DNA of 64,000 nt from Auanema rhodensis (lineage: Eukaryota; Animalia; Nematoda), in NCBI GenBank assembly GCA_964057225.1, contig OZ059900.1, positions 10,788,001 to 10,852,000 on the forward strand, given 5' to 3'. The notes beneath the pieces were generated by a model. It ran no database searches, was not told the DNA's origin, and worked only from the letters and a program-made list of their open reading frames with translations. The translations under genes and the position numbers were made by a program. Below are positions 4,763 to 63,422 of the stretch, piece after piece (the stretch's first letter is position 1; each line of letters opens with the position of its first letter).

Positions 4763-4844
4763 CGATCAGGATGAGATTCGAACTCACGCGGGGAAACCCC
4801 AATGGATTAGCAGTCCATCGCCTTAACCACTCGGCCACCTGATC
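4763..4844 (-). tRNA. tRNA-Ser(GCT)
   Basis: Same sequence as 4019-4100. Confidence 0.97.
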
Positions 4845-4944
4845 ACAGGGTTTTTCCAAGAATACTCTTACATAAACAAAGAAATTATTGTGAGAATAAA
4901 TAACGTCAACAAATGAATAATATAGTCTTCCTATTAAATCAGGT

Positions 4945-5008
4945 TGTCGCGATAAGCGAGTAGGTTTTGTTTTTGTTATCTCTATCTCTCTCTCTATATA
5001 TATACCTC

Positions 5009-11185: not shown

Positions 11186-12197
11186 AGTAGAGAGCCGTGC
11201 AAAATTTACTAACCACGCCCCCAAACAGCTGTCAAAAACATACTTTTGGGGGCGTCAGCTGCTAAAAACATACTTTTGGGGAGCGTCAGCTGTCAAAAAC
11301 ATATTTTTGAGCGTCAGCTGTTAAAATCATATTTTGGGATCATGGTTCATGGATTTTCCTTTTTTAAATATAAAAGTCATGATTTAAAGCATGATTTTTT
11401 TTTTTTTTGATTTTTTTTTTTAAAAATTTTTTTTTTTATAAATCAAATTTAAATATGCTTTTTCAAATGTATGTATATATTTTCAATTATTTTTAAATAT
11501 ATTAAGTAAAAATAAAAATCTTAATTTTAAATATTTAAATTATATTTAAATTTTATATATATATAAATTTTATTTAAACTTTAATTATTTAAATTATATT
11601 TAAATTTTATATATATAAATTATATTTAAACTTTAAATTTTATATATAAATTATATTTAAATTTTAAATATATAAATTTGTTTTTAAATTTTATTTATTT
11701 CTTTATTATATTTATTAATAATGTTTGTTTACTTATTTTGTTTATTTTTTATTGTATTGTGTTTGTACTATTTTATTTGTATTTTTAAAGATCAATAAAA
11801 TTTTTGCATGTAGATAATTTTGTTCACCGTACTTGTTACGGGTAGTTCAATGGAACACATATCGAAGGTTAATTCGATAAGAACGATATGAAATACAAAA
11901 TTCAATGGAACACATATCGAAGGTTAATTCGATAAGAACGATATGAAATACCAAAATTTAATGGAACACATATCGAAAGTTAATTCGATAAGAACGACAT
12001 TAAATTATTAATTTTTGAAATTACAAATTGTTATTAATTATATTTATTCTAACAAGTAAAGGTTTCAAATTATAATAAAAGATTAGTTTTAAACTTTATT
12101 TTACTAATATAACAATACAATAACTAAATAGAGCACACATTGAAGGTAAATACAATAAGATTAACAAACAGTTGCGCTGACCTCAATGAAACGCATA
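11186..12197 (+). repeat. Maverick copy 1 left TIR
   Basis: Reverse complement of about 25907-26878; inner boundary approximate. Confidence 0.9.
11848..12000. repeat. 55-56 bp tandem repeat (x3) inside the TIR
   Basis: Unit AATGGAACACATATCGAAGGTTAATTCGATAAGAACGATATGAAATACAAAATTC; three units in both copy-1 TIRs, four in the copy-2 left TIR. Confidence 0.9.
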
Positions 12198-12393
12198 AAG
12201 TTAATTTAATAAGAACTAATAACAAAAATTAATCCGACGGGGACAATAAAAACAGATGTATTCAATAAGCTTATTTATTTTAAAGTTTATCGCAACTGCT
12301 AGTTTTGACAGCTGTACCCAAATCCATGTTACATAACAAATTACAATGCCAACAGCAATGTGTAGACTGATGTATTCATTATATCAAGGTACA

Positions 12394-15300
12394 ATGGCTG
12401 CTAATAGGTTGTGTCTTTTTGATTATTTGTTTGTAAACTTTTTCTTTTTTTAGTTATAAACGTTTATGTGAAGAGCTAGGATTTGATTATGAAGAAATCA
12501 ATCAGCTCAGGTAATTTAACAATATTTTGAATCTTTATATATATTTTGTTTTTTAGTAAACGTATAAAGTTTACCGAGGCTGGTGGGATCGAGCTCTGTG
12601 AGCCCACATCACCCACTTTTAACAGTGGGCCCTCATCATCAAGGGTTATTGAAGTAATAACCTTGGATGACAGTGATGAGTAAGCGATATTAAAAATTAT
12701 AACAATTAGTTTTTTCTTTTTAAGCGAATGGGATCCTGCTACCCCATCAACCAGTGGAGGACAAGTCGGATATGGAGCGGCATTCAACGATGTCTGTAAA
12801 ATAGAGGTGCGATCTTTTATTTACATATCATTTCATAATATATCTTTTGAAACATGAAATTTTCTCTTGCTCCAATTGCATATTTTGAAAACATTTTGAA
12901 ATTTATTTCTCTTTTTCAATTGCTCTCTCTCTCATCTTTACATTTCATCTCAATCTATATCTTTTTTCAAACAAATTGCAAGTATTTTGAAATTTACATA
13001 TTCATTCTTTTGAACAACATTCATTTTAAAATCTTTACATTTCATCTCACTATCTATCTATCTTTCCTCATCTATCTTTCTTTCAACCAATTTTGAATTC
13101 TTACAAATTATAAATATTTCAAACATTTTGAACTAGTAAAATAATAAAACACAATCTTGACCTTTTCATTTATTTTTTAACATTAACAAATGTTTATAAA
13201 AGTTTTTTCAAAGTTGAAAAAAAAAAAAAAACTTTATATTTAAAAATCAAATGCCATTTATTTTTAAACATTAATAAAAATAATTTAAAGAAAAGTAAAT
13301 TTATAAAAAGTTATAAACAAAAATTATTTATATTTAAACTAAAAGCGTATAACCATTATAAAAAGTGTGTATTATAGTGGTCACACCGACGCATAAAACG
13401 AACTGGTCGGTTCACCAACGTGGTCGTTAGATCGCTCACGTTCCCACATTTGGAAGCCATTGATGAGCCAATGCATGTTGTCATGCCGCGGCTATTTAAT
13501 GAGTTTCTTGATCGGTGCCTTGCTGAAAGTGGTGTGCCAGATAAACAAAAAGCACTATTTTGTTTATCAATAGAGCACCCATCCTTTGAAAAGGGATCCA
13601 TATTTATGGATTTCCGTAGAAGGGAGCATTTGGATGGCGTTGCCATCATGAATGCCATCAGCAAGGTACAGCAATCAAAGCGAGAGGCTGTAATTAGCCA
13701 GGCAATGAACATTGAAATGTATGTGTTTGATGAGAGACCAGTGCAGCCAAGCCTGATGCCTGGTGAAGGTAGAGTTGGTTTCTATTTTGATGCCGAACTC
13801 AAGATACCTGGCACAATTGAGAACACTGATACACATTGCCTGGCTAGAGCAGCAGTTGTGGGAATGTGGAGAGCCGATGAAGAGGCAGCAGAAGATGTTG
13901 TTGAGAAGCGGAGGATTCAAAATCTTCGTCGCAACTACATCTTGTTGCCAAATCAACCACATCATATCAATTTATTGAATAGGTGTGGTATTTCTGTACA
14001 TTTACCAAATTATAATTTGAACCATTTAAATATTATTGCAAGTTGTAATACAGACTATAAGTTTGTAGTATACGCTAGGCCACCTGGACAGCGTATGTAC
14101 GCTATTCAGCGTATCTTTAATGAAACGGCTAGCAAAGTGGTAACACTAGGCTACCGAAATAATCATTATGACTGTATTACAACTTGTAGTAGATCACAGA
14201 TTTTTGATGGTATTATATGCCAACACTGTAAATTATCTTACAAAACAGTGTTGCATAGATGTAAAGCCAAGTGTAAGAAATGCCACACCTTAAAATGTAA
14301 TTCGATGGAAAATGTGGTTGAGAGTAGCATAAGATGTGATAGTTGTAGAGTTTTGTTCAAAACTCGTCAATGCTTTGACAGGCATATTAGAAAAACATGT
14401 CGAATGTTTAAGGTAATTTAAAAAATATATATAAAATTTTACAAGACTAAATTCAGACATGTGAAAACTGTGATCATTATCACAGAGTACGTGCTGATAG
14501 ACCGCACAATTGCAATGAGAAATTTTGCAAAAAGTGTGGGCAAACAAAGCCTGAAGATCATTCTTGTTGTTGGGTACCACCTAACGACAAGAAGAAGGAT
14601 CAGTTAAAAAAGAGGCAAGAAAAATACAAGGTTTGTATTTTACATCTTTACAAGTGTAATGCTTACTTGTTTAAGATTATATTCTATGACTTTGAAACGG
14701 TTGTGTTAAAAAACGGTACAAATGTTCATGAATATGCAGATGAACAATGGCCCAATATGGTTGTGTATAATAAATTTTGTGAAAGTTGTATAGATGCCAA
14801 CTCATGTGAAAAATGCACAACCAAGGAGGGCCATTTTGGGTACCAACAAGGTGATAGTGAATGGTCTGTAACAGATCGTTTCCTTGATTGGTTACTCAAC
14901 TCTGTTGAGAATGATAATGCAATTTTGATTGCGCATAATGGTTCACGCTTTGACATACATTTCTTGGTGTCTAGGCTGATAAACCGTGGTATATATCCTG
15001 ATCCAATTTTAAATGGGACCAAGATTATAAGCATGGTTGTCAAGCCTTTAAGAGGTCAAAAATTTAACCATTTATATTTTAAAGATAGTTATTTATTAGT
15101 GCCTTTACCCTTATCAGCGTTACCCAAGGCATTTGGTGTACCTGATATGAGTAAAGGACAGTTTCCTTACCTCTTTAACCATCCAATAAATTATGGCAAA
15201 GTGTTACCATCTTTACCACCAAAACAGTACTATTGTACTGCTAGAATGAAAGCAGAAGACCTAGCTTCATTCAATATTTGGTATGAAGAGCGTAATCAAA

Positions 15301-17604
15301 GAGCGTTTGATTTTGATGAAGAGCTTTTGGAATATTGTAGGACAGATGTCCGTATTTTAACCAACTGTATGAAAGTTTACATGAAGTTGGCAACCGCCAC
15401 CACTGGCTGGAACCCTGTCATACAATGTATGACATTTGCCAGTTTCTCTTTATTCCAGGCAAGTTTTTTAAAATACAAGCATTTTCAAAACTATTATATT
15501 ACAGTTGAAAATGAACCACATTAAAGAGAACCAAGTGGGTATTCTGCCCGAGACTGGTTATTATGCCGGTCAAAAGCAGAGTATAATAGCCATAAAGTAT
15601 ATAAAATGGCTAGAACAAGGACTGGGCCGCCCATTAATGCATAAGCTTAATGGTGGTGAATTTGCAGTGAGAGTAGATGGTCATCGCTATCTACTCGATG
15701 CTTATGACCCCGTTGCCAATCATGGCTATGAGGTGAGTAATTTGTAATAAATGTGAAAAATGCAAATTTTTGTAGATTAATGGTTGCATTTACCATGGTT
15801 GCCCCCAGTGCACCAACAAGAGCGCTATAGCACCAGGCAGAAATGGTGAAACAATGGAAGAGGTAATTGTGACTTTTTTAATCATTTTAATTTTTAAAAT
15901 TTAGGTTTATGATAAAACCATGAAAAGGCTTGAAGCAATTCAAAGCCAGGGCATTAGTGTTACCACAGTGTGGGAGCACGAAATTAATGCTCAAATTTCG
16001 GCCAATGAAGAAATGGCGAAATTTATGCGTGAAACAAATGTTGTTACACGCTTGGCACCTAGAGATGCCTTTACCGGTGGCCGCACCCAGACATATAAGC
16101 TTTTGGCACAAGCTTCGGATAGATACTCGCTCGAGTATGTGGACTTTTGTTCACTATATCCATATGTCACAGCCTTTGATGCCTACTACCCTGTAGGTAA
16201 TCCCAAAGTTATTACTGAGGGTTTCAAAAGCTTTGAGACATGTTGCCCATACAAGGGGCTAGTAAAATGTGACGTGCTTGCACCCACAAATTTTCTGTAC
16301 CCTGTATTAGGCACACGTATTGGCGGTAAACTAATTTTTACAAACTGCCGCACTTGTGCAGTCAAAAGTAAAAATGTAACATGTGAGCACCAGAATGATG
16401 TAAATGCTAGAAAGCTGCATCTAACTGTGACACATGTTGAGCTCGAGTGTGCCATACAACGTGGCTATAAAGTGCTTAATGTGCATGAGGTGTGGCACTG
16501 GGAAGAATGGCAACAAGGCGGCCTGTTTAAAGAATTTGTACAAAAGTACATAAAAATTAAACAAGAGGCGTCGGGCTGGCCAAAGCCAAACATGACAGAG
16601 GAAGAAAAGGTATGTTTTAATAAAAGTATCACATTAAATAGAATTTTACAGGTGATTTATCTCCAAGAGCACGAGGAGAACACTGGTGTTGCTCTGGAGA
16701 GCAATAAAATTGAAAAGAATGCTGCCATGCGTAGCATTGCCAAACTGCAGCTAAATAGGTTTGTAAACTTTTTAAAACAATACATTACAAATTTGCTTAT
16801 AGTGTCTGGGGTAAAATGGGTCAAAGACCAGATAAAGCCCAAACCAAGATTATTGGTGTTGAGGACCCAGAAATTGGTAGGATCATTACTGATCCTGCAA
16901 GGGAACTCACCGGGTTCAAAATTGTGGATAATGTTGCGTACTGCACAACAGTACCAGAGGATTCACATTTGGCACCACCGCCTTTTACAAATGTAGCTAT
17001 TGCGGCCTATACAACCGCTCATGCAAGGCTACTATTGTATAAGGCAATGGAGAAAATTGGAAAGAATTTGGTGTATACAGGTAATTTTATACTTTGTATT
17101 CAATTTAAACTTACATTATTTAGACACGGATTCTCTAATTTATCAAAGATGCCTAGATGAGCCAGATCCAATTGAGGATATGAAGGGTGAATGGTTAGGT
17201 AAACTAACCTCTGAAATACCCGATGGTTGGTCAATGACCAAGTTTGTGTCACCAGCGGCGAAAGTTTATAGTTATAAACTTGTAAATGCAGCTGGTGATG
17301 TAAAATATGTAACAAAGGCAAAGGGAGTGGTAAGTACGAGCTTTGACTTTTCAAATAATTTTATAATTTTCAGACGTTGGACCACACGGCAGCGTCAGTG
17401 GTAAACTTTGAAAGTATGGAGCGACTGGTTCGCGGACTCGTTATGGATGGAGAAAAATTGGTTTTAAAAACCAATACGACATTGTTAAAGAGGCAACTCG
17501 GTGCCATATCCACAATGGATATGACAAAAAGTACTAGAGTTGTAATGGATAAACTTTGTTATCTACAAGATTATAGTACTTTACCCTACGGTTATTGTGA
17601 ATAA
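12394..17604 (+). CDS. pPolB: Protein-primed family B DNA polymerase, 14 exons, 1369 aa
   Basis: Exons 12394-12407, 12454-12510, 12557-12679, 12725-12806, 13378-14412, 14457-14630, 14676-15458, 15505-15732, 15776-15862, 15905-16609, 16652-16758, 16803-17080, 17124-17329, 17374-17604 join into one frame. Motifs: YDFET, AHNGSRFD, YCRTDV, DFCSLYP, KLQLNSVWGK, YTDTDS, KAKGV. The first four exons are less certain. Confidence 0.9.
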
Positions 17605-17742
17605 TATATTTGAATTTATAAATTTTTATCTTGTATATATTTGTATTTATAAAATTTTATCATTGTACATGTATTTATTTTTAAAAATAGTTGTATTAAT
17701 AAATTTTATTCTTAAATCTTTTAAAGAATTTTATTACATACA

Positions 17743-19077
17743 TTACAAACTGGTATCAATATATGGAGCACGATTGTTGTCAATGGAAAGAATAGAGTCA
17801 TACTCTGCATAAACAATTGCATATAAGCCCTCTTGCGGCGTTTGTTGACCAAATTCCAATTTCAAGGCTACATTACCTTGTCGTATAACATCAAATAACT
17901 CTGACGAATGCACAGTAGGAGAAATATCAAATACAAAAAATGTGAAACCAGCTTTATACATTGCTGGTGTAATACCATTGGATGAATCTGTACGACCAAG
18001 TCCCAAACCTTCCAGCATGTCAATATATGCTGTGGCATAGGAAGATCGCCATTCTAAATTATAAGGACGGGTAGGTATTACCCTATTGTTGAGCGTCAAG
18101 TATATATTTTTCAAATCAAACGGTTTAAAGTTGAATGGCGAATGTTTAAAAGTACCATTATAGGCGTGTGCGCCAACAAGACCTACTACAACACGTTTTG
18201 GTGTGTGAGACGTGAATAATATATTATTAGGTGAATCCAAGCGGCCTCCTTCTATGAAATAAGAGCGCATTTTCACTGATGTCATGGGGTAGTGTATTCG
18301 ATCCTTTGCGAGTTTATCTTCTATAGCCATAGCTAATCCAGCGTTTAGATCAAACTCTTGAATGAGCAAATGTACATCGCTGATATCTACTTTCAAATTT
18401 GGAAACTCCTCCTTTAATGTAGTATCCTTGTTTTCATTATTCCAGCCTAGAGTGTCAATTAAAAAGTTATCACGGTTTGGATATGCAGTTAGCTCCATTT
18501 TTGAATAGTTTACAAACAGTCGCTCTTGATTAAATAGGTCGATACTGACGGGAGCAGCCATCTCACACAATATGCCATTTTTTACAAGTGCTTGACGCGT
18601 TCTAAATCCAGCACTGGATGCATTATCTATATATCTATCAGCATAATAGCCTGATATGGCAAGTTTGCTCTCTTTAACATCGTTGCTATACATTAAAATA
18701 TTCTCGATATATGTTTTATAGGCATGATTCACGGTAGAGTCATACACGCTAACATCACCAATTTTCAAATGATACGAATGTATTAAACTGGCAGCAAATT
18801 GTTGACATGGTGCAAAAACAAGGTTGTCTGGTACTGGATCACCGTTTGTGGTTACAATTTTAAATTTTACATTCAACCAACATCTTCTCAGATTGAGGAA
18901 TGATTTGGAATTTTGAGCTATAACAAATTCCCATGGTCCTTGAGGAAGAAACGTATTTTTCAAAGGGACTTGTACAGTACGAGTAGACTCTACACCTAAT
19001 GCCGACGCTGGTATATCACCATAGTTGATATTAGGTAAAAGGGCTTGTGCTGATTTTGAATCTATCAATTTAGCCAT
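17743..19077 (-). CDS. Maverick major capsid protein (double jelly-roll), 444 aa
   Basis: Size, position and motifs (GPWEF, YK.YIE..L.YS, P.RVVVGLV...AYNG....SPFNF.PF, GFTFFVFDISP) match Polinton MCP. Confidence 0.88.
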   Translation of the reverse strand: MAKLIDSKSAQALLPNINYGDIPASALGVESTRTVQVPLKNTFLPQGPWEFVIAQNSKSFLNLRRCWLNVKFKIVTTNGDPVPDNLVFAPCQQFAASLIHSYHLKIGDVSVYDSTVNHAYKTYIENILMYSNDVKESKLAISGYYADRYIDNASSAGFRTRQALVKNGILCEMAAPVSIDLFNQERLFVNYSKMELTAYPNRDNFLIDTLGWNNENKDTTLKEEFPNLKVDISDVHLLIQEFDLNAGLAMAIEDKLAKDRIHYPMTSVKMRSYFIEGGRLDSPNNILFTSHTPKRVVVGLVGAHAYNGTFKHSPFNFKPFDLKNIYLTLNNRVIPTRPYNLEWRSSYATAYIDMLEGLGLGRTDSSNGITPAMYKAGFTFFVFDISPTVHSSELFDVIRQGNVALKLEFGQQTPQEGLYAIVYAEYDSILSIDNNRAPYIDTSL

Positions 19078-19530
19078 TTAAATGTGAAACGACCGCTCAC
19101 GAGTGATGCACAACCGCTTATGAGGTTTTGTGGTTTTGCGTCGTCGCCGTTTGCCCAAGCCGGTAAGATCTCGTATAGCTTGCCGGCCGGCTGTTTTAAG
19201 AGTTTCCTTGATATTATCGCCTTTCAGCACCCCATCGACAATTTCATTACCAGTTTTCAGCAACTGTCCGCCAAGAGGTGAATTTACAACTGGACTTTTG
19301 CTTACAGCACTGGATAAGGCGTTTCTTCCGGCATTGATGAGATTTTGGGCTATAGGTGATTGAATGATGCGTGGTAGAAATGATGCCAAAGTTGCCAAAA
19401 TACCACCCAAACCATGACCCCTCTGCATTCCACGTTGAAACATCATTCCGCTAAATGGGGCGCCACCCATTTGTTGATTTAAAAGTGTTGTCCATTGAAT
19501 AGAGTTGACATCCAAAAGGAGGTGCGGCAT
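19078..19530 (-). CDS. Small Gly-rich, basic Maverick protein, putative virion core protein
   Basis: ATG at 19530; QRGHGLGG motif and basic tail GLGKRRRRK; abuts the MCP start; conserved in copy 2. Confidence 0.75.
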   Translation of the reverse strand: MPHLLLDVNSIQWTTLLNQQMGGAPFSGMMFQRGMQRGHGLGGILATLASFLPRIIQSPIAQNLINAGRNALSSAVSKSPVVNSPLGGQLLKTGNEIVDGVLKGDNIKETLKTAGRQAIRDLTGLGKRRRRKTTKPHKRLCITRERSFHI

Positions 19531-19581
19531 ATCGAACCGCACGCGCGCAATACAAAAGTTACACTAGATCATTCTACTAAA

Positions 19582-20037
19582 ATGTATTCGTCTGAAATAG
19601 TATCACTATTGCAATCTGTCCCCAGCACTCGGAAACTATTCCTCGGTGTATATAGCGCTGATACTCTACCCAAAACGCGTCGTAAAAACTTTGCACTTGT
19701 CGTAAATACTGACACACATGATAAGCCAGGCACACATTGGCAGGTCATTTTTGTCCGTAACAAGCAAGCCTATTTTTTCTGTAGCTTGGGATATAAAATG
19801 AACAAGTACATTCAAAATTATCTGGCCAAATATAAAAAGGTAAAAATTAATACTTGCAAACCACAACGTTTAATTGAATACACTTGTGGTGGCTATGTGG
19901 TATTTGTAATACTAATGTTGTCGGCTGGTAATTCATTTGAAAGCATTTGTTCATTTTTTAAACTATTGAAAAATGATGATGTCTTTATTAAAGCGTTTAT
20001 GCATAAAGTATTCGACTATAAATTGGCTACTATATAA
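19582..20037 (+). CDS. Adenain-like cysteine maturation protease
   Basis: FLGVYSAD.LP, VVNTD....PGTHW, Q.....TCG.Y catalytic motifs. Confidence 0.9.
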   Translation: MYSSEIVSLLQSVPSTRKLFLGVYSADTLPKTRRKNFALVVNTDTHDKPGTHWQVIFVRNKQAYFFCSLGYKMNKYIQNYLAKYKKVKINTCKPQRLIEYTCGGYVVFVILMLSAGNSFESICSFFKLLKNDDVFIKAFMHKVFDYKLATI

Positions 20038-20078
20038 GAAATTTGTCATTAATAACCTGCTACATTACGTGGTCAGTT

Positions 20079-20249
20079 ATGAATATTCCTTGTCACTGTG
20101 AATTATGTGTCAAATACACGTTGGAGCAATCTAAACCAGCGCCTTTATACAGGAGAATGTTGAAATGTATTTCAGTGCCATTTATTAAAGGTATAGCATT
20201 GGGATTGGGCTTTTGTACAACACTAGTCATATTATTGCTCATTATATAA
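20079..20249 (+). CDS. Small Cys-containing protein with C-terminal hydrophobic helix (56 aa)
   Basis: ATG at 20079 with TATA 48 nt upstream; CxCxxC motif and GIALGLGFCTTLVILLLII tail; identical in copy 2. Confidence 0.55.
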   Translation: MNIPCHCELCVKYTLEQSKPAPLYRRMLKCISVPFIKGIALGLGFCTTLVILLLII

Positions 20250-20290
20250 AAGTGGGTTGATTGCGTGTGGTCGTTTTTCATTTTCCTCTA

Positions 20291-20755
20291 ATGGAACTTT
20301 TATGTAACAAATATTGTGGTACATGCAAGGAAATATTTTCTTCAACCAAGCATTTTAGTGATCACGTTTTGAAAAGACATGCAGGGATTCAACCCATATG
20401 TAACAATTATATCAGCAATGCTGACTTTATTCAAAAATATGGACATTTGGATGGTGTTCGTAGACGTTTGTGCCCTCATTGTAGTGAAACTTTTGGAACA
20501 AGATTCAATTGTGAGCGTCATATTCGGCGTATTCATAATAATAATGGAACGAATGGTGAAGATGGTGATGGAAATGATACCAGCAAACCCTTTGAAAAAG
20601 CTGAGGAGTTTGTACATTCAACCCAATCAAAAAGATGCCGCAGCAATAGTGACGGAGAACATTCACAACACGAGCCGAGCGACAAACAAAACTGCCCTAA
20701 ACTATCTTTTAAACCTTCGAAAATAAAAATGTGGTATTGTATAACTGTTGAATAA
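20291..20755 (+). CDS. Protein with two C2H2 zinc fingers (154 aa)
   Basis: CGTCKEIFSSTKHFSDHVLKRH and CPHCSETFGTRFNCERHIRRIH; TATA 48 nt upstream; AATAAA overlaps the stop. Confidence 0.8.
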   Translation: MELLCNKYCGTCKEIFSSTKHFSDHVLKRHAGIQPICNNYISNADFIQKYGHLDGVRRRLCPHCSETFGTRFNCERHIRRIHNNNGTNGEDGDGNDTSKPFEKAEEFVHSTQSKRCRSNSDGEHSQHEPSDKQNCPKLSFKPSKIKMWYCITVE

Positions 20756-20760
20756 AACGT

Positions 20761-21618
20761 TTATTTCATATTTTTAACATGTAATGTAACAACAGTAGAA
20801 CCATAATTAAATTGCATAGGACGACCAAATTCATCTAAAATTTCAATACGTATGGTATCGAGTGTTTGTCTAGTGATTGGTACATAACGAATAGGATTAA
20901 ATGTTTTGGCAATCATTTTACCAAATTCAGTAGGAGGTGGTACAGGTAAACATGCAAGTAAATTAGCTTTCACATTACCAAGAATGGAATATTCTACAAT
21001 ATCACAATATATATACATTGTATTAATGTTATTTGAAAAATCAATGGGACGCCTGGCTATTATTGTATCGTTGATGTTTTTATTTTCAAAACCAAGAAAA
21101 TATGCAAAATCATCACCAAGCGTTGCATTCATTAATAGTCGCTTGCTTGTTACAAACTCTATGCGCTGCAATGTTTTGTTAAACTGAAATGTGGCGTCCG
21201 CGAGCATTTCCTCCACTAGCTTAGCCTCAGCCTGGCGATTATTATACCATTTTTTTACATCTTCATCTTTATCTATTAAACTTTTTATACGTGCTTCTTC
21301 CTCAGCTCCAAGAGGCTTTGTATTGTTGGCGATAAATGATTCTCTTCCAGCATTGATTCCGCGTATTATTTCATCACCATTTGCATAGTTGCCTTTAGGC
21401 AAGTGTAGAATAAATTTTCTATTGGAAAAACGTAGTGTATAAGATAAATCTTTTTGAACATTTAATATAGAACAAGGAAAAATGATGTCTGTCAGCCCAA
21501 TACAATATTTATTATTGCGTAGCCTTAGTGTTTCAGGTAATCTGGTAAGAAACACTGATGATGTATTACTTTTTTCAGAGTCAACTGATGATGGAAGAGT
21601 AATGTAAAAATCATCCAT
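20761..21618 (-). CDS. Maverick minor capsid (penton-like) protein
   Basis: N-terminal FYITLPS...N..S.F..RLP; C-terminal MYIYCDIVE.S.LG and I.I.DE.GRP..F..G...VTLH. Confidence 0.85.
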   Translation of the reverse strand: MDDFYITLPSSVDSEKSNTSSVFLTRLPETLRLRNNKYCIGLTDIIFPCSILNVQKDLSYTLRFSNRKFILHLPKGNYANGDEIIRGINAGRESFIANNTKPLGAEEEARIKSLIDKDEDVKKWYNNRQAEAKLVEEMLADATFQFNKTLQRIEFVTSKRLLMNATLGDDFAYFLGFENKNINDTIIARRPIDFSNNINTMYIYCDIVEYSILGNVKANLLACLPVPPPTEFGKMIAKTFNPIRYVPITRQTLDTIRIEILDEFGRPMQFNYGSTVVTLHVKNMK

Positions 21619-21697
21619 GACAAACCACCACTTGATACGTGTACACTATTGCAAATGAAATCATTTGCATTTTAGGTACATTTACGAGTGGTTGATT

Positions 21698-22345
21698 ATG
21701 GTTTTCAGCTTCAAACTACCCAGTCAGACAACTGTAATAGGTGCTACCCAATGCGGTAAAACAACCCTCATAAAGCACATATGTGAAAATACTGAAAAGT
21801 TTTTCAACGTCCCCATTGATAGAATATTCTGGTTTAGTCAATGTGGGTCATCGTCAGGTGTACCAATAAATGATGAGCGTTTAATAATTATTCAAGGGCC
21901 TCCTGATCCTGATTTGATAAAAGAACAAAAGGGAGTAAATACTATACTAGTGCTGGATGATTTGATGAACTTTTTTTCATCGAATAAAGCAGCAAAGGAA
22001 TTACTCAACAACATTTTTACAGTATGGGCTCATCACTGGAATTTGGCAGTGTTTAATCTTGTGCAAGCGGCATTTCAACTGGACAGGACCAGTCGAATCA
22101 ATAGTACATATATAATACTGATGAAAAGTCATTCAGATATATTACAAATACGTAATTGTCTGCAGCAATTATTTGGGCCACGTTTCAAAAATGCTCTAGA
22201 GGCGTATGATGATGCAATGTCTACTCCCTATAGTCATTTACTGATTGACAATCATCCTTTAACAAGTGAGAAGCAGCGTATACTATCTGATATAACAGCG
22301 GAGAACCCTATTGTTTATGTTGCCAGAAATGTGTTTAGTGTTTAA
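21698..22345 (+). CDS. A32/FtsK-like genome packaging ATPase
   Basis: Walker A GATQCGKT, Walker B LVLDDLM, FT...HH.N, R.N..YI, PYS.LLID. Confidence 0.92.
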   Translation: MVFSFKLPSQTTVIGATQCGKTTLIKHICENTEKFFNVPIDRIFWFSQCGSSSGVPINDERLIIIQGPPDPDLIKEQKGVNTILVLDDLMNFFSSNKAAKELLNNIFTVWAHHWNLAVFNLVQAAFQLDRTSRINSTYIILMKSHSDILQIRNCLQQLFGPRFKNALEAYDDAMSTPYSHLLIDNHPLTSEKQRILSDITAENPIVYVARNVFSV

Positions 22346-22357
22346 AGTGCTTGTTCA

Positions 22358-22666
22358 ATGAGTGGTCGTATTTTGTCAAATTTCAACTTTTTGTCTTCTT
22401 GCGCCAAAACTCCTTGTTCTGTTTCCTCATTTTCTTTTGCACAAATTGAAATTATTGTTGAAATTGTATTTAATATTGTGAAAAATAATAATTTTCTTTT
22501 AACTAACAAGGAATATAAAACCCTCTTGCCCATATCTTCATTATTACGTCAAATAGCTTTGATACGCACACCGGAAAAGGCTAAATCATTATTGGCAACG
22601 CTTTCACACAAACAATTGAAAACAATAGTTACATGTGGTATTGCCTATTTTGGTTTTAAATCATGA
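22358..22666 (+). CDS. Maverick hypothetical protein (102 aa)
   Basis: ATG ORF packed between its neighbours, ATGA overlap with the next ORF, identical protein in copy 2. Confidence 0.7.
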   Translation: MSGRILSNFNFLSSCAKTPCSVSSFSFAQIEIIVEIVFNIVKNNNFLLTNKEYKTLLPISSLLRQIALIRTPEKAKSLLATLSHKQLKTIVTCGIAYFGFKS

Positions 22667-23379
22667 AGCTCAACCATAAATATCGACTAATTCCTGTCGA
22701 CGAGGAAACAATTAATATAGACAAGTTTGATGCAGAGCTCAAGCTTTTACGAGAAAATAGAGCTATACCCGACTATAAAAAGGTTGAACTATACGAAGAT
22801 TTGATTGCTCGTCTCAAAAACTATAGAGAAAGTATAGATGCGCCCATATCAGTACAAGTGGAAAATGCTGATCCACCTCTATTGCCAGAATACAAGTTGC
22901 CAAGAAAGTATAACAATTTGTGGGAGAAATTTCCAGAGGTGCGCACAAACAAGAATAACCAACTTGTGATTAATAAAGAGGCTGTACCAAACACGAATAT
23001 TACAAAAATTTTAGATTTTGTATTGGATAAAACAAAAACGGAGCCCAATGGATTTTCAGTCTTGTCAAAGTTTTTAGCCAGTAAAGGCGTACCAAGTTCT
23101 AACAAGAAACAAACTAGAAGAGAGTCGGCTGACAATGATTCAGTTGACGTTGTAACTAGAGCTGAACCGGCTGTTACAGACTTGGACTCTACTATATTAC
23201 CTAGAACGCCTCGTCATCGTAAAGCTGTTATTCGATATTCACCATCACCGGTTCGTACACTGAAAAGTAAAAGGTCAAAGACTTTTGATACTGCCGCCGA
23301 ATCATATTACACACCACGGGAAGGAGACTCACAGAATGGCCAAGGTCGTAAAAGGTTCTACATTAGATTATGGAAATGA
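22663..23379 (+). CDS. Maverick hypothetical protein (238 aa) with basic C-terminus
   Basis: ATG ORF conserved in copy 2; ends QNGQGRKRFYIRLWK. Confidence 0.75.
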   Translation: MKLNHKYRLIPVDEETINIDKFDAELKLLRENRAIPDYKKVELYEDLIARLKNYRESIDAPISVQVENADPPLLPEYKLPRKYNNLWEKFPEVRTNKNNQLVINKEAVPNTNITKILDFVLDKTKTEPNGFSVLSKFLASKGVPSSNKKQTRRESADNDSVDVVTRAEPAVTDLDSTILPRTPRHRKAVIRYSPSPVRTLKSKRSKTFDTAAESYYTPREGDSQNGQGRKRFYIRLWK

Positions 23380-24403
23380 TATTTTGGCGAGCATTTATTA
23401 CGATATAAAACATCCAGCTTCATATACATCAACCAAGAATTTATTATCGCAAGCACGAAAACATGGCATTTCAAAGGTACAAGTTGATGATTTTTTGCAA
23501 GATTCTGAAACTTTTACACGGCATAAACCAACCAGAATGCGTATGCAGACTAGAAAGACTAGAGGATGTGGTCGATTTCTAACAGTGCAAGCAGATTTGG
23601 TTGATATGCAAAAATATAAAAAATTAAACGACGGCTATGCTTACATGTTGACCATGATTGATGTTTATACACGCATGTTATATGTTAGGCCTTTGAAAAC
23701 TAAAGGTGGTATAGAGGTTGCTAGTGCATTTGAAAATTTATTCAAGAATTTTATACCAATTCAGTTGATTACTGATAATGGCACAGAGTTTTATAATAGT
23801 CATTGTGAAAAACTATTCAAAAAGTTTGCCATACTGCACGGATCTACAAGTTCACCACAAAAGGCTGCAATGGTGGAGCGAGCAAATAGAACTTTAAAAA
23901 CACGCATGATGAAATATCTCTATTACAAGAATAATCATCGATGGATTGATATCCTAGATGATTTGGTTGAAGGAATAAACAAATCTTATAATCGGTCAAT
24001 TAAAATGCGGCCCATTGATGTTAAAGCAAATATATTCATTGAAGAATATGCATCAGCTGTTAAAAGCCGGTTTAAAATTGGTGATACTGTTCGCATAAGC
24101 AAAAATAGGCGTACTTTTGAAAAAAGCTACGAGTCTGGATATACAATGGAGCTGTTCACAATTGATGAGGTTGTAACCGGAAACCCAACCGTGTATAAAC
24201 TTGTAGATTATAATGGTGAACGTATAAAGGGAATATTCTACGAACCTGAACTTGTCTTGGCTACTAATAAAAGCAACAAGTACTATATAGAAAAAGTTTT
24301 AAAAGAGCGTACTCGAAGCGGTAAACGTCAAGTATTTGTAAAATGGAGTGGATATCCCGACAACTTTAACGAATGGATAGATGCAGAAAATTTAAATGTA
24401 TAA
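23336..24403 (+). CDS. int: Retroviral-like (rve) integrase with C-terminal chromodomain
   Basis: YYD...P.SY, QADLVDM, IDVYTR, TDNGTEF, KAAMVERANRTLK; chromodomain YYIEKVLKER...VFVKWSGYP...NEWI. Confidence 0.93.
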   Translation: MAKVVKGSTLDYGNDILASIYYDIKHPASYTSTKNLLSQARKHGISKVQVDDFLQDSETFTRHKPTRMRMQTRKTRGCGRFLTVQADLVDMQKYKKLNDGYAYMLTMIDVYTRMLYVRPLKTKGGIEVASAFENLFKNFIPIQLITDNGTEFYNSHCEKLFKKFAILHGSTSSPQKAAMVERANRTLKTRMMKYLYYKNNHRWIDILDDLVEGINKSYNRSIKMRPIDVKANIFIEEYASAVKSRFKIGDTVRISKNRRTFEKSYESGYTMELFTIDEVVTGNPTVYKLVDYNGERIKGIFYEPELVLATNKSNKYYIEKVLKERTRSGKRQVFVKWSGYPDNFNEWIDAENLNV

Positions 24404-24698
24404 TTTTTCAATGTTATAAACAATTGTAATTATAATAAATGATTTATTTGATATATCGCATAATGTAACAATAAAAAACCAGCAAAATACAAACAACAAT
24501 TCAACCTGGAAAAAAAAAATGTAGACTATTCAAATTTTCAAATTCTTACCAGTTGGTTGATCATTCGTCCTCAATTGATGAGCCATTGATGGATAATCGC
24601 AAGAGCTGGAAAAAAAAAATGTTACGGCTGAGAATATAAAAATGCCACATAACAAAACAAGAATAAAACGCCAATTGTACTATTTGTGCTTGTTGTAG

Positions 24699-25283
24699 TC
24701 AAAATGAAGGATCAAAGCGGATAAACATGTTCAGGTTGAGTGCTTCTGGACTTAGTTTAAAGTAGAATACATTCTGCTTATAACCAAAAGTCTTTATAGT
24801 AGCCTCATCTGCATATATAACAATATAGCCCATATTGTTCAACAATTGCTTGCACGTCATGGTGTTATAAGAGCGCATCTAAAAAATGATAAAATTGAAA
24901 ATAAATAAATATGCAAGCTTACATTAATAGAGAACTTTTCGGGCTTATAGTGACGAAATTCCTTCAAAAGACCCAACGCATCATTCCTTCCTCTACACTT
25001 TATACAGAGGCTGAAACAGTGATACTCGTCTATAACCTGCAATGATTCCCTACAAGTTTTGCAGAGACAAATTGGTCTCATTAATACACTCCTTGGTGGA
25101 GTGCTCTCTCTCAGAATCTCCATCTGCTTTATTGGTGAATCTAAATTAAAGATTTAAAAAATACAAGTTAAGGTTCATACCAAAACTTGTAAAATTTGGT
25201 GCTGGTGTGGGTGGTCGTGGTACTTCAGGTTCAGGCGATTTGCGCACCACATTTGTCACATCAGCAAGTACAGCACGCTTCAT
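24699..25283 (-). CDS. Spliced Maverick accessory gene (3 exons, 166 aa) with D-box motif and Cys/His cluster
   Basis: Exons 25283-25181, 25140-24923, 24878-24699 with GT-AG introns of 40 and 44 nt; GTATAAAAG at 25443-25435. Copy-2 differences seen are four synonymous changes and one I/V change. Confidence 0.75.
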
Positions 25284-25906
25284 TTCCGCTAAAGATCCAA
25301 CTTTCTAAAATATAAGGCAAACTTGCAGAGAGGAGCAGTCTATGGCGATTGGCAAAGAGTGGCAGGAGATGGTGAAACGTCGGATCCTCGGATAGTTGGC
25401 AGAGCTGAAATGTAAATGTAGCAAAATTGCCAACCTTTTATACAAAGATTTTTGTAAAGTACAACCCATTGTGTTACAATCAAGTTTGCTGATGAAATTC
25501 TCTTATTAATTAGATTTTACAGCATATTTATGCAGATATACTCATCTTATCGACAGTTGCCAGCAGTTGGCGCACTCTGAACCTGTAAACAATCTGCATA
25601 TTAATTAGTTTTTACATCTCTTTAAACATTATTGTTTACCGTTTGTGCCATAAACAACAGCCATCTCTGTAAAACATTTAGGCTTTTTAAACTTTGCTTA
25701 ATAGCTCATATATTATTCATAGTATACTTTTACACCCATATTGTACCACAAAACATATGACTGCCAACGTTTTATATGTAAAAATATTTCATTCTTGAAT
25801 ATTTAAAAATGATTATATTACGAAACTAAAACTTTTGAAATGTTAAAATGATTATACTATATTTAAACCCCCAACAGTGCAGTTATTACTGTTTATTAAC
25901 CATCGA

Positions 25907-26878
25907 TATGCGTGGCGTTGAGGTCAGCGCAACTGTTTGTTAATCTTATTGTATTTACCTTCAATGTGTGCTCTATAGAGTTATTGTATTGTTATATTAG
26001 TAAAATAAAGTTTAAAACTAATCTTTTATTATAATTTGAAACCTTTACTTGTTAGAATAAATATAATTAATAACAATTCGCAATTTCAAAAATTAATAAT
26101 TTAATGTCGTTCTTATCGAATTAACCTTCGATATGTGTTCCATTAAATTTTGGTATTTCATATCGTTCTTATCGAATTAACCTTCGATATGTGTTCCATT
26201 AAATTTTGGTATTTCATATCGTTCTTATCGAATTAACTTTCGATATGTGTTCCATTGAATTACCCATAACAAGTACGGTGAACAAAATTATCTACATGCA
26301 AAATTTTATTGATCTTTAAAATAAAAACAATACAAACACAATACAATAAAAAATAAACAAATCAAGTAAACAAACATTATTAATAAATATAATAAAGAAA
26401 TAAATAAAATTTAAAAACATATTTATATATTTAAAATTTAAATATAATTTATATATAAAATTTAAAGTTTAAATATAATTTATATATATAAAATTTAAAT
26501 ATAATTTAAATAATTAAAGTTTAAATAAAATTTATATATATATAAAATTTAAATATAATTTAAATATTTAAAATTAAGATTTTTATTTTTACTTAATATA
26601 TTTAAAAATAATTGAAAATATATACATACATTTGAAAAAGCATATTTAAATTTGATTTAAAAAAAAAATCATGCTTTAAATCATGATTTTTAAATTTAAA
26701 AAAGGAAAATCCATGAACCATGATCCCAAAATATGATTTTAACAGCTGACGCTCAAAAATATGTTTTTGACAGCTGACGCGCCCCCAAAAGTATGTTTTT
26801 AGCAGCTGACGCCCCCAAAAGTATGTTTTTGACAGCTGTTTGGGGGCGTGGTTAGTAAATTTTGCACGGCTCTCTACT
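25907..26878 (-). repeat. Maverick copy 1 right TIR
   Basis: Inverted copy of 11186-12197; inner boundary approximate. Confidence 0.9.
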
Positions 26879-29236
26879 GATATTGTATTAGACAATATAC
26901 TTTTCGATCATCCTATAGAACATACAGATCAAACAATACATGAGAATAAAGACATAAATGATGTTAGCCATAATTACGATATTGCATATGAATCAGATAA
27001 CTCTCAACATGATAATACATACACTCCAGAAACAGAGAATAATGAGGATGCAACAAATGATCGACCTCAAAATAAGACAAAACAATCATCAGTAAAAACA
27101 GCAAAATATACAGAACAAGATGATGTCACTGAGAAGGAAATTATAAAAGCCTTCCCACTAAAAATGTCCTATGCTACACACCAAAGAAAAAATAAAATAA
27201 ACCCAAAAGTAGCAGCTGACATAATGAAAGCGCTTTCCTTACCGATTATAATAACTTCGACATATGCCGAAGAAATCAATAGTTGCAAGGACTCTAACAT
27301 GTTCACCACAAAACTTATAGCGAATCCTCATTGCTCCCCAGAAATGGCAACATGGACAGTGATAATAACCATTATGGCCGTTACCCTCATAGTCTCTTGT
27401 CTATGCCGCATGGGTTACAGCCAATATAGATATAAGACATGGTCCAGAAACACTCAAATTATGCTCAACACCATGAAATCAAAACACAAAACAATCTCCG
27501 TACAAGAAGATCATGAAACTGATCAAAAAATAACAGAAAATCACAATGATACGTTGCAATTAAAACAAACGAACACACAAGACGTTAATATTGTGGATCA
27601 TGAAACCTCTCAAAAGCATATTTACCCTATTTTAAACCATACAAGAAGGCCACCAAAATTCTCTCTTTTTACTAGAGGGTCGCAATCATCTTTACCATCG
27701 TTACTGGCAATCATCTTGGCTTTCTGTATTGGAAGCTACAGCTCTTGCTCCGATGTCCATGTTCAACATTTCGTTAACATAAGATGCGATGAAAACCTAG
27801 TCTGTTATCACGAATACAGTCAAGATATAATATTCTCTCCCGGAACAAAACAGTTGTGTATCAACATAATACACTCTAATCATGAAATCGGTCAATTCAA
27901 AATAACGAAATTATATACTGAACATGTCTGCCGAAAGAATATTAGATACTTCACTAGACAGACAACAGTTAACATACTGAGTATATTACGATGCCGTCAC
28001 CGAGGCTCCTGTAACGGAACATGTGAAACTAACTCGCTTCATAATAAAATCAAAGAACTACAACCATACACCTTTCCTTCACAATCCGGTTGTTTTACAT
28101 CGTCGGCGAGATTTTACACATGTCCTATGATTTGGACAGATCCATGTCTTTTCTACAAAATAGAGCATATACCCATCACAGAAGAAGTATACGAAGTCTA
28201 TACTTGTAATAGTTGGTTCACCCAAACTGTATTCAATATAGAAACAACACTACTCCAGCAGAAAAACAATTACAATATCACTCTACAACCTTACACAAAA
28301 AATCGTGAACAACTTTTCAATATAACAACGTTATCACAATCACAACCTCCTCCAGAAATGTACACAAAATTATTTTTTTCCTCGAAAGAAAACACGTACA
28401 TTACGGATATACATACAAAGGGAATAGTTCAATGTGCAACAGAGGAAGCCGCATTAAAACATTTCAACAATTGTACAGTATCTTCATTTTGCCCATGCAC
28501 ATTTAACAGATTTGATGAAATAAAATGTAGGTGTGATACCCCTACTTTTGAAAAAATGTCCAATACATCAGACATGAGATCTCCTAACCAAAACTTCAAA
28601 ACTAAAGATAACACGTTATCATTCTCTACAAATTTAGACGAAAGTTTTGTTACGGTCGATTCATCTCTATTCTTAAACTCAGTCATTTTTTCCAACAATC
28701 TGCCTTGTGCACCTGCCCTCACAAAACTATCAGGTTGCTACTCCTGCGGGCAGGGTGCGTTCGCAGAGTTCCAATGCCTTACGGCAGAAGAAACATGGAT
28801 TTCTATCGAATGTCAAAGAGAAGTATTCATGATAAAATGTTCTCCAAAAGTAGCAATCACGGAAGTAACAATCAAAAGAGAAAATTCTCAAATTGATGAA
28901 TTCTGCTATACCACATGCGACAATAAAAAAATTGAGATCATTATTAAGGGAACATTACACCACATAGCAAGCATAGATGAAATAAACGAAAGTGACTCAA
29001 AAGAGGGTACAGAATCCAAATCCATTGACTTTGCTCCAATCCTCAAACTAATCCTATCAAAGTTGGGAATCATACTGATAGGCATTGTCATTACCGCTAC
29101 TATAGGATATGTAGCATGCACGCCAATGATATACTTTGTATTGATAAATACAGTATTAGCCATACAATGGATGGCCAAAAGGATGATTACAATATACAGA
29201 AATTTCACAGCCTCACTTCGAGATCAGAGATTTTAA
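26879..29236 (+). CDS. env: BEL/Pao env region: phlebovirus Gc-like class II fusion glycoprotein (mature Gc from about 27746), detached from pol by the Maverick
   Basis: Signal-like LLAIILAFCIGSYSS|CSD, Cys-rich ectodomain (YFTR, RC.H.GSC, CLFY, YEVY.C.SW, L.GCYSC.QGA...F.C), C-terminal TM. In frame with pol across the TSD. Confidence 0.85.
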   Translation, partial: DIVLDNILFDHPIEHTDQTIHENKDINDVSHNYDIAYESDNSQHDNTYTPETENNEDATNDRPQNKTKQSSVKTAKYTEQDDVTEKEIIKAFPLKMSYATHQRKNKINPKVAADIMKALSLPIIITSTYAEEINSCKDSNMFTTKLIANPHCSPEMATWTVIITIMAVTLIVSCLCRMGYSQYRYKTWSRNTQIMLNTMKSKHKTISVQEDHETDQKITENHNDTLQLKQTNTQDVNIVDHETSQKHIYPILNHTRRPPKFSLFTRGSQSSLPSLLAIILAFCIGSYSSCSDVHVQHFVNIRCDENLVCYHEYSQDIIFSPGTKQLCINIIHSNHEIGQFKITKLYTEHVCRKNIRYFTRQTTVNILSILRCRHRGSCNGTCETNSLHNKIKELQPYTFPSQSGCFTSSARFYTCPMIWTDPCLFYKIEHIPITEEVYEVYTCNSWFTQTVFNIETTLLQQKNNYNITLQPYTKNREQLFNITTLSQSQPPPEMYTKLFFSSKENTYITDIHTKGIVQCATEEAALKHFNNCTVSSFCPCTFNRFDEIKCRCDTPTFEKMSNTSDMRSPNQNFKTKDNTLSFSTNLDESFVTVDSSLFLNSVIFSNNLPCAPALTKLSGCYSCGQGAFAEFQCLTAEETWISIECQREVFMIKCSPKVAITEVTIKRENSQIDEFCYTTCDNKKIEIIIKGTLHHIASIDEINESDSKEGTESKSIDFAPILKLILSKLGIILIGIVITATIGYVACTPMIYFVLINTVLAIQWMAKRMITIYRNFTASLRDQRF

Positions 29237-62837: not shown

Positions 62838-63422
62838 TCAAAATGAAGGATCAAAGCGGATAAACATGTTCAGGTTGAGTGCTTCAGGACTTAGTTTAAA
62901 GTAGAATACATTCTGCTTATAACCAAAAGTCTTTACAGTAGCCTCATCTGCATATATAACAATATAGCCCATATTGTTCAACAATTGCTTGCACGTCATG
63001 GTATTATAAGAGCGCATCTAAAAAATGATAAAATTGAAAATAAATAAATATGCAAGCTTACATTAATAGAGAACTTTTCGGGCTTATAGTGACGAAATTC
63101 CTTCAAAAGACCCAACGCATCATTCCTTCCTCTACACTTTATACAGAGGCTGAAACAGTGATACTCGTCTATAACCTGCAATGATTCCCTACAAGTTTTG
63201 CAGAGACAAATTGGTCTCATTAATACACTCCTTGGTGGAGTGCTCTCTCTCAGAATCTCCATCTGCTTTATTGGTGAATCTAAATTAAAGATTTAAAAAA
63301 TACAAGTTAAGGTTCATACCAAAACTTGTAAAATTTGGAGCTGGTGTGGGTGGTCGTGGTACTTCAGGTTCAGGCGATTTGCGCACAACATTTGTCACAT
63401 CAGCAAGTACAGCACGCTTCAT
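62838..63422 (-). CDS. Spliced D-box/Cys-cluster accessory gene (copy 2)
   Basis: Homolog of 24699-25283 with splice sites conserved. Confidence 0.75.

What the first reader, a model, noticed from the sequence alone, without database searches (positions are those of the whole stretch)
24699..25443. Hidden spliced Maverick gene with an APC/C destruction box, CDK-type sites and a zinc-binding cluster
Seen: three minus-strand exons give a 166-aa protein starting MKRAVLADVTNVVRKSPEPEVPRPPTPAPNFTSFDSPIKQMEILRESTPPRSVLMRPICLCKTCRESLQVIDEYHCFSLCIKC. It has its own GTATAAAAG box, and copy 2 differs by four synonymous changes and one conservative change. Known: RxxLxDxxN near a disordered N-terminus is the cyclin/securin D-box, and SPxK and TPxR are CDK consensus sites. 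Inference: this is a cell-cycle-gated early regulator, or an APC/C decoy, that ties element replication to host S/G2 phase. That would be analogous in role, not necessarily in ancestry, to adenovirus E1A. I do not know of such a gene among the standard Maverick core genes.
Basis: partly seen in the sequence, partly recalled or inferred. Interest (0 to 1): 0.8.

Follow-up and report, generated by a model that had tools for sequence, protein, structure and literature searches.

The report
Nematode Maverick destruction-box gene, two splices
A virus-like Maverick transposon in a nematode genome carries a small transcribed gene whose product begins with a textbook cell-cycle destruction signal, and an overlooked extra splice cuts it to a short form without its predicted zinc-binding half, which likely gives the element a regulator timed by the host cell cycle.

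Summary
The gene is real, but the model was incomplete. The 166-aa three-exon frame, the TATA-like box and the copy-2 differences (4 silent, I135V) are as described. Both predicted introns appear as joints in RNA contigs. It is spliced in 2 of 5 laid runs and read into for 29 nt in 1. Splicing shifts the frame and leaves a 66-aa product that keeps the D-box and CDK sites and loses both CxxC pairs. The long frame still looks selected (open in 10 of 20,000 shuffles; codon-position bias against a diverged transcript). The D-box matches the Hsl1-derived super D-box peptide at 6 of 9 positions. No homologue or fold match was found, so D-box conservation is untested. The gene sits in the TIR-integrase cargo slot of nematode Mavericks. 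E1A-like motif genes ('Oncoids') are already proposed for Polintons, but this one lacks their LxCxE. The scan held no look-alike DNA; it has noted other spliced Maverick accessory genes. Verdict: new variant of a known kind; role untested.

The parts
25435..25443 (-). TATA-like box (GTATAAAAG)
   Evidence: RNA contig 5' ends lie downstream at 25396 (X4) and 25348 (X1, X2), but one X3 contig (25319-25483) crosses it
25181..25283 (-). Coding exon 1 (ATG 25283; residues 1-34; D-box and Pro-rich tract)
   Evidence: covered by contigs of X1, X2, X4
25251..25277 (-). D-box RAVLADVTN (residues 3-11)
   Evidence: consensus and Hsl1-derived peptide from PMC12401543
25141..25180 (-). Intron 1, 40 nt, GT-AG, 20% GC
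   Evidence: joint in X1 and X4, loose end in X2; GC
25054..25140 (-). Exon 2a (residues 35-63): SPIK, TPPR, first two Cys
25011..25053 (-).
   Evidence: spliced in X1 and X2; read into as far as 25025 in X4
25000..25002 (-). Stop codon of the 66-aa short form
24923..25010 (-). Exon 2b: second CxxC and predicted helices in the long form
24879..24922 (-).
   Evidence: joint in X1, X2, X3
24699..24878 (-). Coding exon 3 (59 aa, starts with ATG; predicted small alpha/beta domain) and stop of the long form
   Evidence: model; substitution pattern
24506..24549 (-). 3' UTR intron, 44 nt, GT-AG
   Evidence: joint in X1
24443..24448 (-). AATAAA, candidate poly(A) signal, about 40 nt from the stop of the convergent integrase
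   Evidence: the X1 contig ends at 24460
23336..24403 (+). Maverick integrase (rve + chromo), convergent neighbour
   Evidence: best named hits Auanema sp. 69% over 59% of the query, Caenorhabditis remanei 46%
11186..26878 (.). Host element: complete Maverick copy 1 with about 1-kb terminal inverted repeats and 6-bp target-site duplication GATATT
62838..63422 (-). Second copy of the gene in Maverick copy 2 (starts near 49294, runs off the window end); no difference in any of the three introns within the coding span

Best explanation
This is a transcribed, spliced accessory gene in the cargo slot of a nematode Maverick, and it likely encodes a regulator whose level is set by the host cell cycle through a predicted APC/C degron, with an optional intron switching between a predicted 166-aa effector and a 66-aa motif-only form. 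Shown: the gene, four spliced introns, the frameshifting optional intron, the motifs, and signs of selection on the long frame. Inferred mechanism: (1) the N-terminal roughly 58 residues are disordered and carry a D-box, which APC/C-FZY-1/FZR-1 would read, clearing the protein from anaphase through G1 and letting it build up in S/G2; (2) the SP/TP sites would let CDK tune it; (3) with the 43-nt segment retained, paired CxxC motifs would bind zinc and, with the small C-terminal alpha/beta domain, form the part that acts on an unknown host or element target; (4) splicing the segment out gives a short form with no effector half, so the resting integrated element would mostly make the short form and retention would be the 'on' state. 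The target and any effect on Maverick replication are not shown.
For: Joints for both predicted introns and for the optional one in RNA contigs; X4 reads 29 nt into the optional one. The optional intron has exon-like GC (42% against 18-23% for the other three) and holds C64, H75 and C76. The 308 nt from its donor to the long stop are open in the needed frame in 10 of 20,000 shuffles. Of 18 listed differences from a diverged transcript over exon 3 (18 of 25 in the X4 piece), 9/8/1 fall on codon positions 3/1/2 (P=0.007), 7 of 14 changed codons are silent (P about 0.01) and none is a stop, whereas both other frames hit a stop. Copy 2: 4 of 5 changes silent. The D-box equals the Hsl1-derived peptide RAALSDITN at 6 of 9 positions with conservative changes at the other three; Lys 2, 15, 39 and 62 are nearby. 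N-terminal D-boxes act in nematodes (IFY-1). Position matches the intron-bearing cargo region.
Against: No contig spans the retained intron, so the 166-aa mRNA is not shown; the 29-nt read-in could be unfinished pre-mRNA, and exon 3 could instead be read from its own ATG as 59 aa. X1-X4 come from one study, at contig depth 3-7, and are only guessed to be RNA; X5 covers only 24597-24745. No homologue was found in any protein or contig search, so D-box conservation is untested. By bin arithmetic the diverged transcript aligns only to residues about 18-31, 52-64 and 118-166, not to the D-box, the CDK sites or most of the zinc cluster. No KEN, ABBA, LxCxE or CR1 motif (patterns recalled except LxCxE and CR1). 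RxxL alone is common (266 in 60,796 residues). One X3 contig crosses the TATA-like box.
Confidence: 0.45

Rival explanations
1. APC/C decoy: the 66-aa form is the working product. It is almost nothing but a strong D-box and phospho-sites, and would occupy the D-box receptor of Cdc20/Cdh1, stabilise host substrates and raise nucleotide pools for the element's own polymerase.
For: The short form is the one seen in 2 of 3 informative runs. The D-box resembles the highest-affinity natural one. Several unrelated viruses inhibit APC/C, and this raises nucleotide pools (PMC13524340 passages). No nucleotide-synthesis family was found among the 13 element ORFs in the 20 scanned with Pfam.
Against: No KEN or ABBA motif, which multivalent inhibitors such as Acm1 use (recalled); four lysines make it a substrate rather than a pseudosubstrate; a lone D-box peptide binds at micromolar affinity; contig depth is low; selection on exon 3 argues that the long form matters.
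Confidence: 0.15
2. Captured host cargo: a nematode cell-cycle gene or fragment picked up in the TIR-integrase slot, like wasp and krma, that rides along or acts selfishly on host meiosis or embryos and has no role in Maverick replication.
For: Same slot, introns and lack of homology as described cargo (10.1101/2022.07.12.499685 section 11); own promoter-like box and poly(A) signal; N-terminal D-box in a disordered arm as in securin IFY-1.
Against: No host-type homologue among 1.84 billion representatives for exon 2, in Pfam or among PDB sequences. A diverged transcript occurs beside diverged contigs of other Maverick genes in the same runs, which hints at long residence in the element family (linkage not shown). 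No host genome was held, so a non-Maverick paralogue cannot be excluded.
Confidence: 0.2
3. The gene is a real Maverick zinc-binding accessory gene, but the D-box and CDK sites are incidental to a Pro-rich tail, and the extra splice is a cryptic host splice at a chance TTTCAG that merely silences it.
For: The diverged transcript does not visibly align over the D-box or CDK sites; the optional intron has a weak donor, a perfect nematode-type acceptor and puts a stop upstream of two more introns; motif statistics are post hoc.
Against: The match goes well beyond RxxL (RxxLxD[IV]TN occurs once in 60,796 six-frame residues, here, at residue 3 of a real gene); two full CDK sites against 0.04 expected; the two exon-1 changes in copy 2 are silent, one next to the D-box.
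Confidence: 0.2

Closest known systems
Intron-bearing cargo genes of nematode Mavericks (wasp proteases, krma kinases; 10.1101/2022.07.12.499685, passages and section 11 read)
   Same: Intron-containing gene between a terminal inverted repeat and the integrase of a nematode Maverick, unrelated to the core genes.
   Different: About 1.5-kb slot instead of 2-5 kb; a 66/166-aa motif-rich protein, not a protease or kinase (no Pfam hit for the three exons); RNA contigs seen here, while that paper detected no transcription of Maverick genes; horizontal transfer not tested.
'Oncoid' genes of adintoviruses/Polintons (PMC8502044, passages read)
   Same: Small protein of short linear cell-cycle motifs next to paired CxxC, proposed to work like E1A or E7.
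   Different: No LxCxE and no CR1; a D-box and CDK sites instead; lies downstream of the integrase at the far end from pPolB, whereas Oncoids are typically upstream of PolB; spliced.
Adenovirus E1A 13S/12S (splicing detail recalled, not from a call)
   Same: Terminal gene with a TATA box, disordered motif arm and a CxxC pair that alternative splicing removes.
   Different: The E1A splice is in frame and keeps the C-terminus; here it frameshifts and truncates. No Rb motifs; no sequence or fold match found. Analogy only.
Viral APC/C modulators: CAV Vp3/apoptin, Orf virus PACR, HCMV pUL21a/pUL97, HPV E2 (PMC13524340, passages read)
   Same: Small viral proteins acting on APC/C.
   Different: In the passages read they bind or dismantle subunits or coactivators; none is described as a D-box mimic (the term does not occur in that paper). 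Here APC/C contact is predicted from the motif only.
C. elegans securin IFY-1 (10.1101/2023.12.12.571338, passages read)
   Same: D-box in an unstructured N-terminus of a small nematode protein.
   Different: None of the three exons hit a securin or separase chain among PDB sequences at E<=10; no separase-binding region identified; securins diverge fast, so this is weak.

Membership tests
Maverick/Polinton (host element) | pPolB, retroviral-like integrase, packaging ATPase, adenoviral-type protease | tested here: met
   DNA_pol_B_2 (E 9e-24, 1e-15), rve + chromo, Peptidase_C5 (E 0.001, under its cut-off), ATPase-like hits under cut-off; nematode Maverick-type integrases are the best named hits
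Maverick/Polinton (host element) | Long terminal inverted repeats beginning AG, 6-bp target-site duplication | tested here: met
   About 1-kb arms at 93% identity; AGTAGAG...CTCTACT flanked by GATATT on both sides
Maverick/Polinton (host element) | Major and minor capsid proteins | tested here: inconclusive
   444-aa and 285-aa ORFs fit by size and place but had no Pfam hit; not folded
Nematode Maverick cargo (wasp/krma type) | Intron-containing gene between TIR and integrase | tested here: met
   Gene lies between the integrase stop 24403 and the TIR edge near 25882; four introns in RNA contigs
Nematode Maverick cargo (wasp/krma type) | Host origin and horizontal exchange between species | not testable with these tools
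   No host genome held; no homologue found
Oncoid / E1A-like | LxCxE Rb-binding motif, with CK2 site and optional CR1 | tested here: not met
   0 LxCx[DE] and 0 CR1 matches in either form (patterns)
Oncoid / E1A-like | Paired CxxC | tested here: met
   C61-C64 and C80-C83 in the long form only
APC/C D-box substrate | RxxLxxxxN with preferred residues at positions 2-8 | tested here: met
   RAVLADVTN against RAALSDITN and RLPLGDISN
APC/C D-box substrate | Motif in a disordered region with nearby lysines | tested here: inconclusive
   11 Pro in the first 58 aa and 4 Lys in 66 aa; start of exon 2 has pLDDT under 50; exon 1 itself not modelled
APC/C D-box substrate | Motif conserved in orthologues | tested here: inconclusive
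   No orthologue sequence recovered; the diverged contig appears not to align over residues 1-17 at 80% identity
APC/C D-box substrate | APC/C-dependent degradation | not testable with these tools
   Needs an experiment
APC/C pseudosubstrate inhibitor (Acm1/Mes1 type; features recalled) | Several degrons (D-box with KEN and/or ABBA) | tested here: not met
   0 KEN, 0 ABBA; two extra minimal RxxL only

The most novel reading that the evidence does not exclude
A Polinton-class element encodes a dedicated APC/C-facing protein built by degron mimicry, and a frameshifting exitron is its latency switch: spliced, it yields a 66-aa D-box/CDK peptide that titrates or senses APC/C; retained, it yields a cell-cycle-gated zinc-finger effector that starts element gene expression or replication in the germline. 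That would give the first handle on what wakes nematode Mavericks, the proposed vectors of horizontal gene transfer.
Probability: 0.15. Interest if true: 0.85.

Novelty: new variant of a known kind. Interest (0 to 1): 0.55.

Why it matters
What triggers an integrated nematode Maverick is open: Widen et al. detected no transcription of Maverick genes and only hypothesised a trigger. Here one accessory gene of an intact two-copy family is transcribed, spliced in two ways and carries a strong host cell-cycle degron. This offers a concrete, testable link between a Maverick and the host's APC/C-CDK clock, and widens the cargo slot beyond proteases and kinases. Searches for 'polinton' + 'destruction box' and 'Maverick' + 'transposon' + 'APC' + 'D-box' returned no paper in the held library, which lacks most subscription journals. 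The idea of E1A-like motif genes in Polintons is not new, and no function is shown, which caps the score.

Tried and rejected
Homology, all negative. Exon 2 (72 aa) against 1.84 billion representatives: 1 hit, E 5e-5, a tandem-repeat ORF that I rejected. Word-index searches of longer proteins: exon 3, 0 of 3 candidates; exon 2, 0 of 1; these did not cover proteins near the exon lengths. Exon 1 was not searched in these two databases. Pfam: 0 families for 3 exons. PHROGs: 2 weak hits for exon 1 only, E 0.055 and 0.33. PDB sequences: nothing better than E 0.1. ESM Atlas: exon 2 top score 0.92 to unnamed bacterial and phage clusters with recognition under the threshold, exon 3 no hit. Exon 3 in metagenome contigs: 0 of 127 pattern matches confirmed. 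Integrase and the 444-aa ORF alone in viral contigs: 0 of 11 and 0 of 5. The integrase alignment gave 80 + 21 loci, all distant (integrase at most 43% identical); tblastn of the three exons found only proline-tract matches, and a strong D-box pattern occurred 2 times against 2-5 in five shuffles; these loci are too distant to test conservation. Folds: the exon-2 model is poor (pLDDT 58), with no Foldseek hit and best Z 3.1; the exon-3 model has best pLDDT 81 but the five models range 53-81, with no match at Z>=2 and no BFVD hit at E<=0.001. The whole protein was not folded or searched as one piece. No genome was held. Considered and rejected: that the fully spliced RNA reads exon 2a in the exon-3 frame (a stop forms at the exon 1/2 joint and the first ATG is at exon 3). 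Two in-frame alternative GT-AG pairs exist in exon 2 but no contig shows them. Scattered low-depth contigs on other element genes cannot rank expression. The scan's earlier notes held no look-alike stretch.

Full report
Setting. The window holds a complete Maverick at 11186-26878 with about 1-kb terminal inverted repeats and the target-site duplication GATATT, and a second copy from about 49294 that runs off the window end at 97.5% identity. Pfam finds pPolB, an integrase with a chromodomain, and weak protease and ATPase hits. The best named relatives of the integrase are from Auanema and Caenorhabditis, and the short introns ending in TTTCAG or TTTTAG fit a nematode (consensus recalled). The finding lies on the minus strand between the integrase stop (24403) and the right repeat (from about 25882), convergent with the integrase. 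This is the slot in which Widen et al. describe intron-bearing cargo genes (10.1101/2022.07.12.499685, passages and section 11). No whole genome was held.

The observation. The three exons join to a 166-aa ORF exactly as quoted, with GT-AG introns of 40 and 44 nt. Copy 2 differs by four silent codons and I135V, and has no change in the introns within the coding span. The silent excess (4 of 5; P about 0.01) resembles that of the core ORFs, such as 7:1 in the 444-aa ORF and 10:3 in the integrase. The TATA-like box is at 25443, one of 16 such matches in the element under my pattern.

RNA evidence. Five runs hold part of the stretch, four from one study and only guessed to be RNA. All are contigs at depth about 3-7. 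Their GT-AG joints show spliced RNA. With the 43 nt removed the frame shifts and the ORF ends at 66 aa. That form keeps the D-box, four SP/TP sites and two cysteines, and loses both CxxC pairs and the C-terminal domain. In X4 a contig spliced at intron 1 runs 29 letters into the segment and ends, just under the tool's bridging rule. X3 and X5 do not reach it. So of 3 informative runs, 2 show splicing and 1 hints at retention. The contigs carry copy-2-type letters at 25248, 24797 and 24596, so the expressed copy is not simply copy 1.

Is the long frame real? Three lines say it is under selection. The optional intron is 42% GC like the exons, against 18-23% for the other three introns, and it holds C64, H75 and C76. 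The 308 nt from its donor to the long stop are open in the required frame in 10 of 20,000 shuffles, although the intron alone is open in 36%. At 80% likeness a diverged transcript appears in X1 and X4 (about 82-85% identical over exon 3). The tool listed 18 of the 25 differences in the X4 piece: 9, 8 and 1 at codon positions 3, 1 and 2 of the long frame (P 0.007), 7 of 14 changed codons silent against a 19% silent-site share (P about 0.01), no stop; both other frames meet a stop. This shows exon 3 has been read in that frame. It does not tell retention from use of exon 3's own ATG (59 aa).

Against a simple picture. Depth arithmetic, which reproduces the neighbouring bin exactly, leaves about 42 aligned letters of the diverged contig in exon 1 (25191 to about 25232). 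It therefore aligns to residues about 18-31, 52-64 and 118-166 and not to the D-box, the two full CDK sites or most of the zinc cluster. It breaks at the same donor (25054) and resumes at 24848, just after an AG; the tool could not say whether letters lie between. A direct joint there would be out of the long frame in the window's own sequence. D-box conservation is untested, not supported.

The motifs. RAVLADVTN (residues 3-11) matches the Hsl1-derived peptide RAALSDITN at 6 of 9 positions with conservative changes elsewhere; Val at position 7 is common in substrates but bound weakest of Val, Leu and Ile (PMC12401543, passages). RxxLxD[IV]TN occurs once in 60,796 six-frame residues of the first 30.4 kb, the looser RxxLxDxxN three times and RxxL 266 times. 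Two full CDK sites are present against 0.04 expected. TPPRS also fits recalled Polo-box and Fbw7-type patterns; I give these no weight. KEN, ABBA, LxCxE and CR1 are absent. N-terminal D-boxes work in nematodes: the degron-dead securin IFY-1 is dominant negative (10.1101/2023.12.12.571338, passages).

Relatives and folds. None were found: for sequence and 54, 65-67 for folds, each on single exons. Exon 3 alone gave one model at pLDDT 81 with alternating strands and helices, but the five models ranged 53-81. The 101 loci brought in by the integrase alignment are too distant to test the gene.

Mechanism. I commit, at 0.45, to a cell-cycle-gated accessory regulator: a D-box and CDK arm that would confine the protein to S/G2 and early mitosis, joined in the long form to a predicted zinc site and a small domain that would act on an unknown target, with the optional intron setting the ratio of effector to motif-only form. 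Gene, splicing, motifs and selection are shown; degradation, phosphorylation, zinc binding, target and any role in element replication are inferred. Rivals: APC/C decoy by the short form (0.15; viral APC/C inhibition raises nucleotide pools, PMC13524340, passages), captured host cargo with no role for the element (0.2), and incidental motifs with a cryptic silencing splice (0.2).

Comparison. It works like the proposed 'Oncoid' or E1A-type genes (linear cell-cycle motifs beside paired CxxC; PMC8502044, passages) but fails their LxCxE test and sits elsewhere, so it is not filed as one. It fits the positional definition of nematode Maverick cargo, but host origin is untested. The conserved genes listed for nematode Polintons do not include it (10.1101/2023.08.22.554363, abstract and section 5); that paper also marks unnamed novel ORFs, and its supplements, those of Widen et al. 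(bioRxiv supplements are closed) and the Oncoid supplement (not opened) could hold relatives. Paper searches linking Polintons or Mavericks to a D-box gave 0 hits (a broader one also 0). The scan's own notes held no look-alike DNA and five other spliced accessory genes in or beside Mavericks of other genomes, none described with a D-box in the lines shown; these are unchecked and were used only as context.

Verdict. Observation partly confirmed, with an important correction; interpretation partly supported; new variant of a known kind; interest 0.55.

Noticed in passing
window 24600-24848, 25054-25088, about 25191-25232 (run X1 record 7, X4 record 26): A diverged (about 82-85%) transcript of a relative of this gene exists in the same runs; it breaks at the same donor (25054) and resumes at 24848. 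Diverged contigs also match other element genes (near 15680-15830, 20160-20286, 21863-22027), which suggests a second Maverick subfamily.
   Followed up: partly
window about 12395-12810, + strand: Inside the left repeat, short open stretches alternate with AT-rich GT..TTTTAG segments, suggesting a second hidden spliced gene or the 5' exons of pPolB; one stretch reads VIEVITLDDSD, like a SUMO-interacting motif (pattern recalled). No contig covered 12260-12714.
   Followed up: partly
window 13471 to about 17700, + strand: pPolB is spread over several ORFs in both copies, as if it has introns, whereas the C. plicata Maverick core genes are described as intronless.
   Followed up: no
window 11186-26878: No ORF as long as the 866-aa MFUS-1 fusogen is present (the longest in the element is 444 aa), although a fusogen is listed among conserved genes of nematode Polintons; a spliced or short one was not sought.
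   Followed up: no
window 5608-11086 and 27164-29236: Copy 1 lies between the gag and pol ORFs of a BEL/Pao retrotransposon and a Phlebovirus-G2-like envelope ORF, so it appears to have inserted into an env-bearing LTR element.
   Followed up: no
window 20291-20755, + strand: 154-aa ORF with weak C2H2 zinc-finger hits between the protease and the 285-aa ORF; has a TATA-like box at 20150 on the opposite strand and contig cover in X1, X2 and X4.
   Followed up: no
window 3948-4991 and 30411 to about 47000: A 248-bp tandem repeat in about 72 copies separates the two Maverick copies.
   Followed up: no
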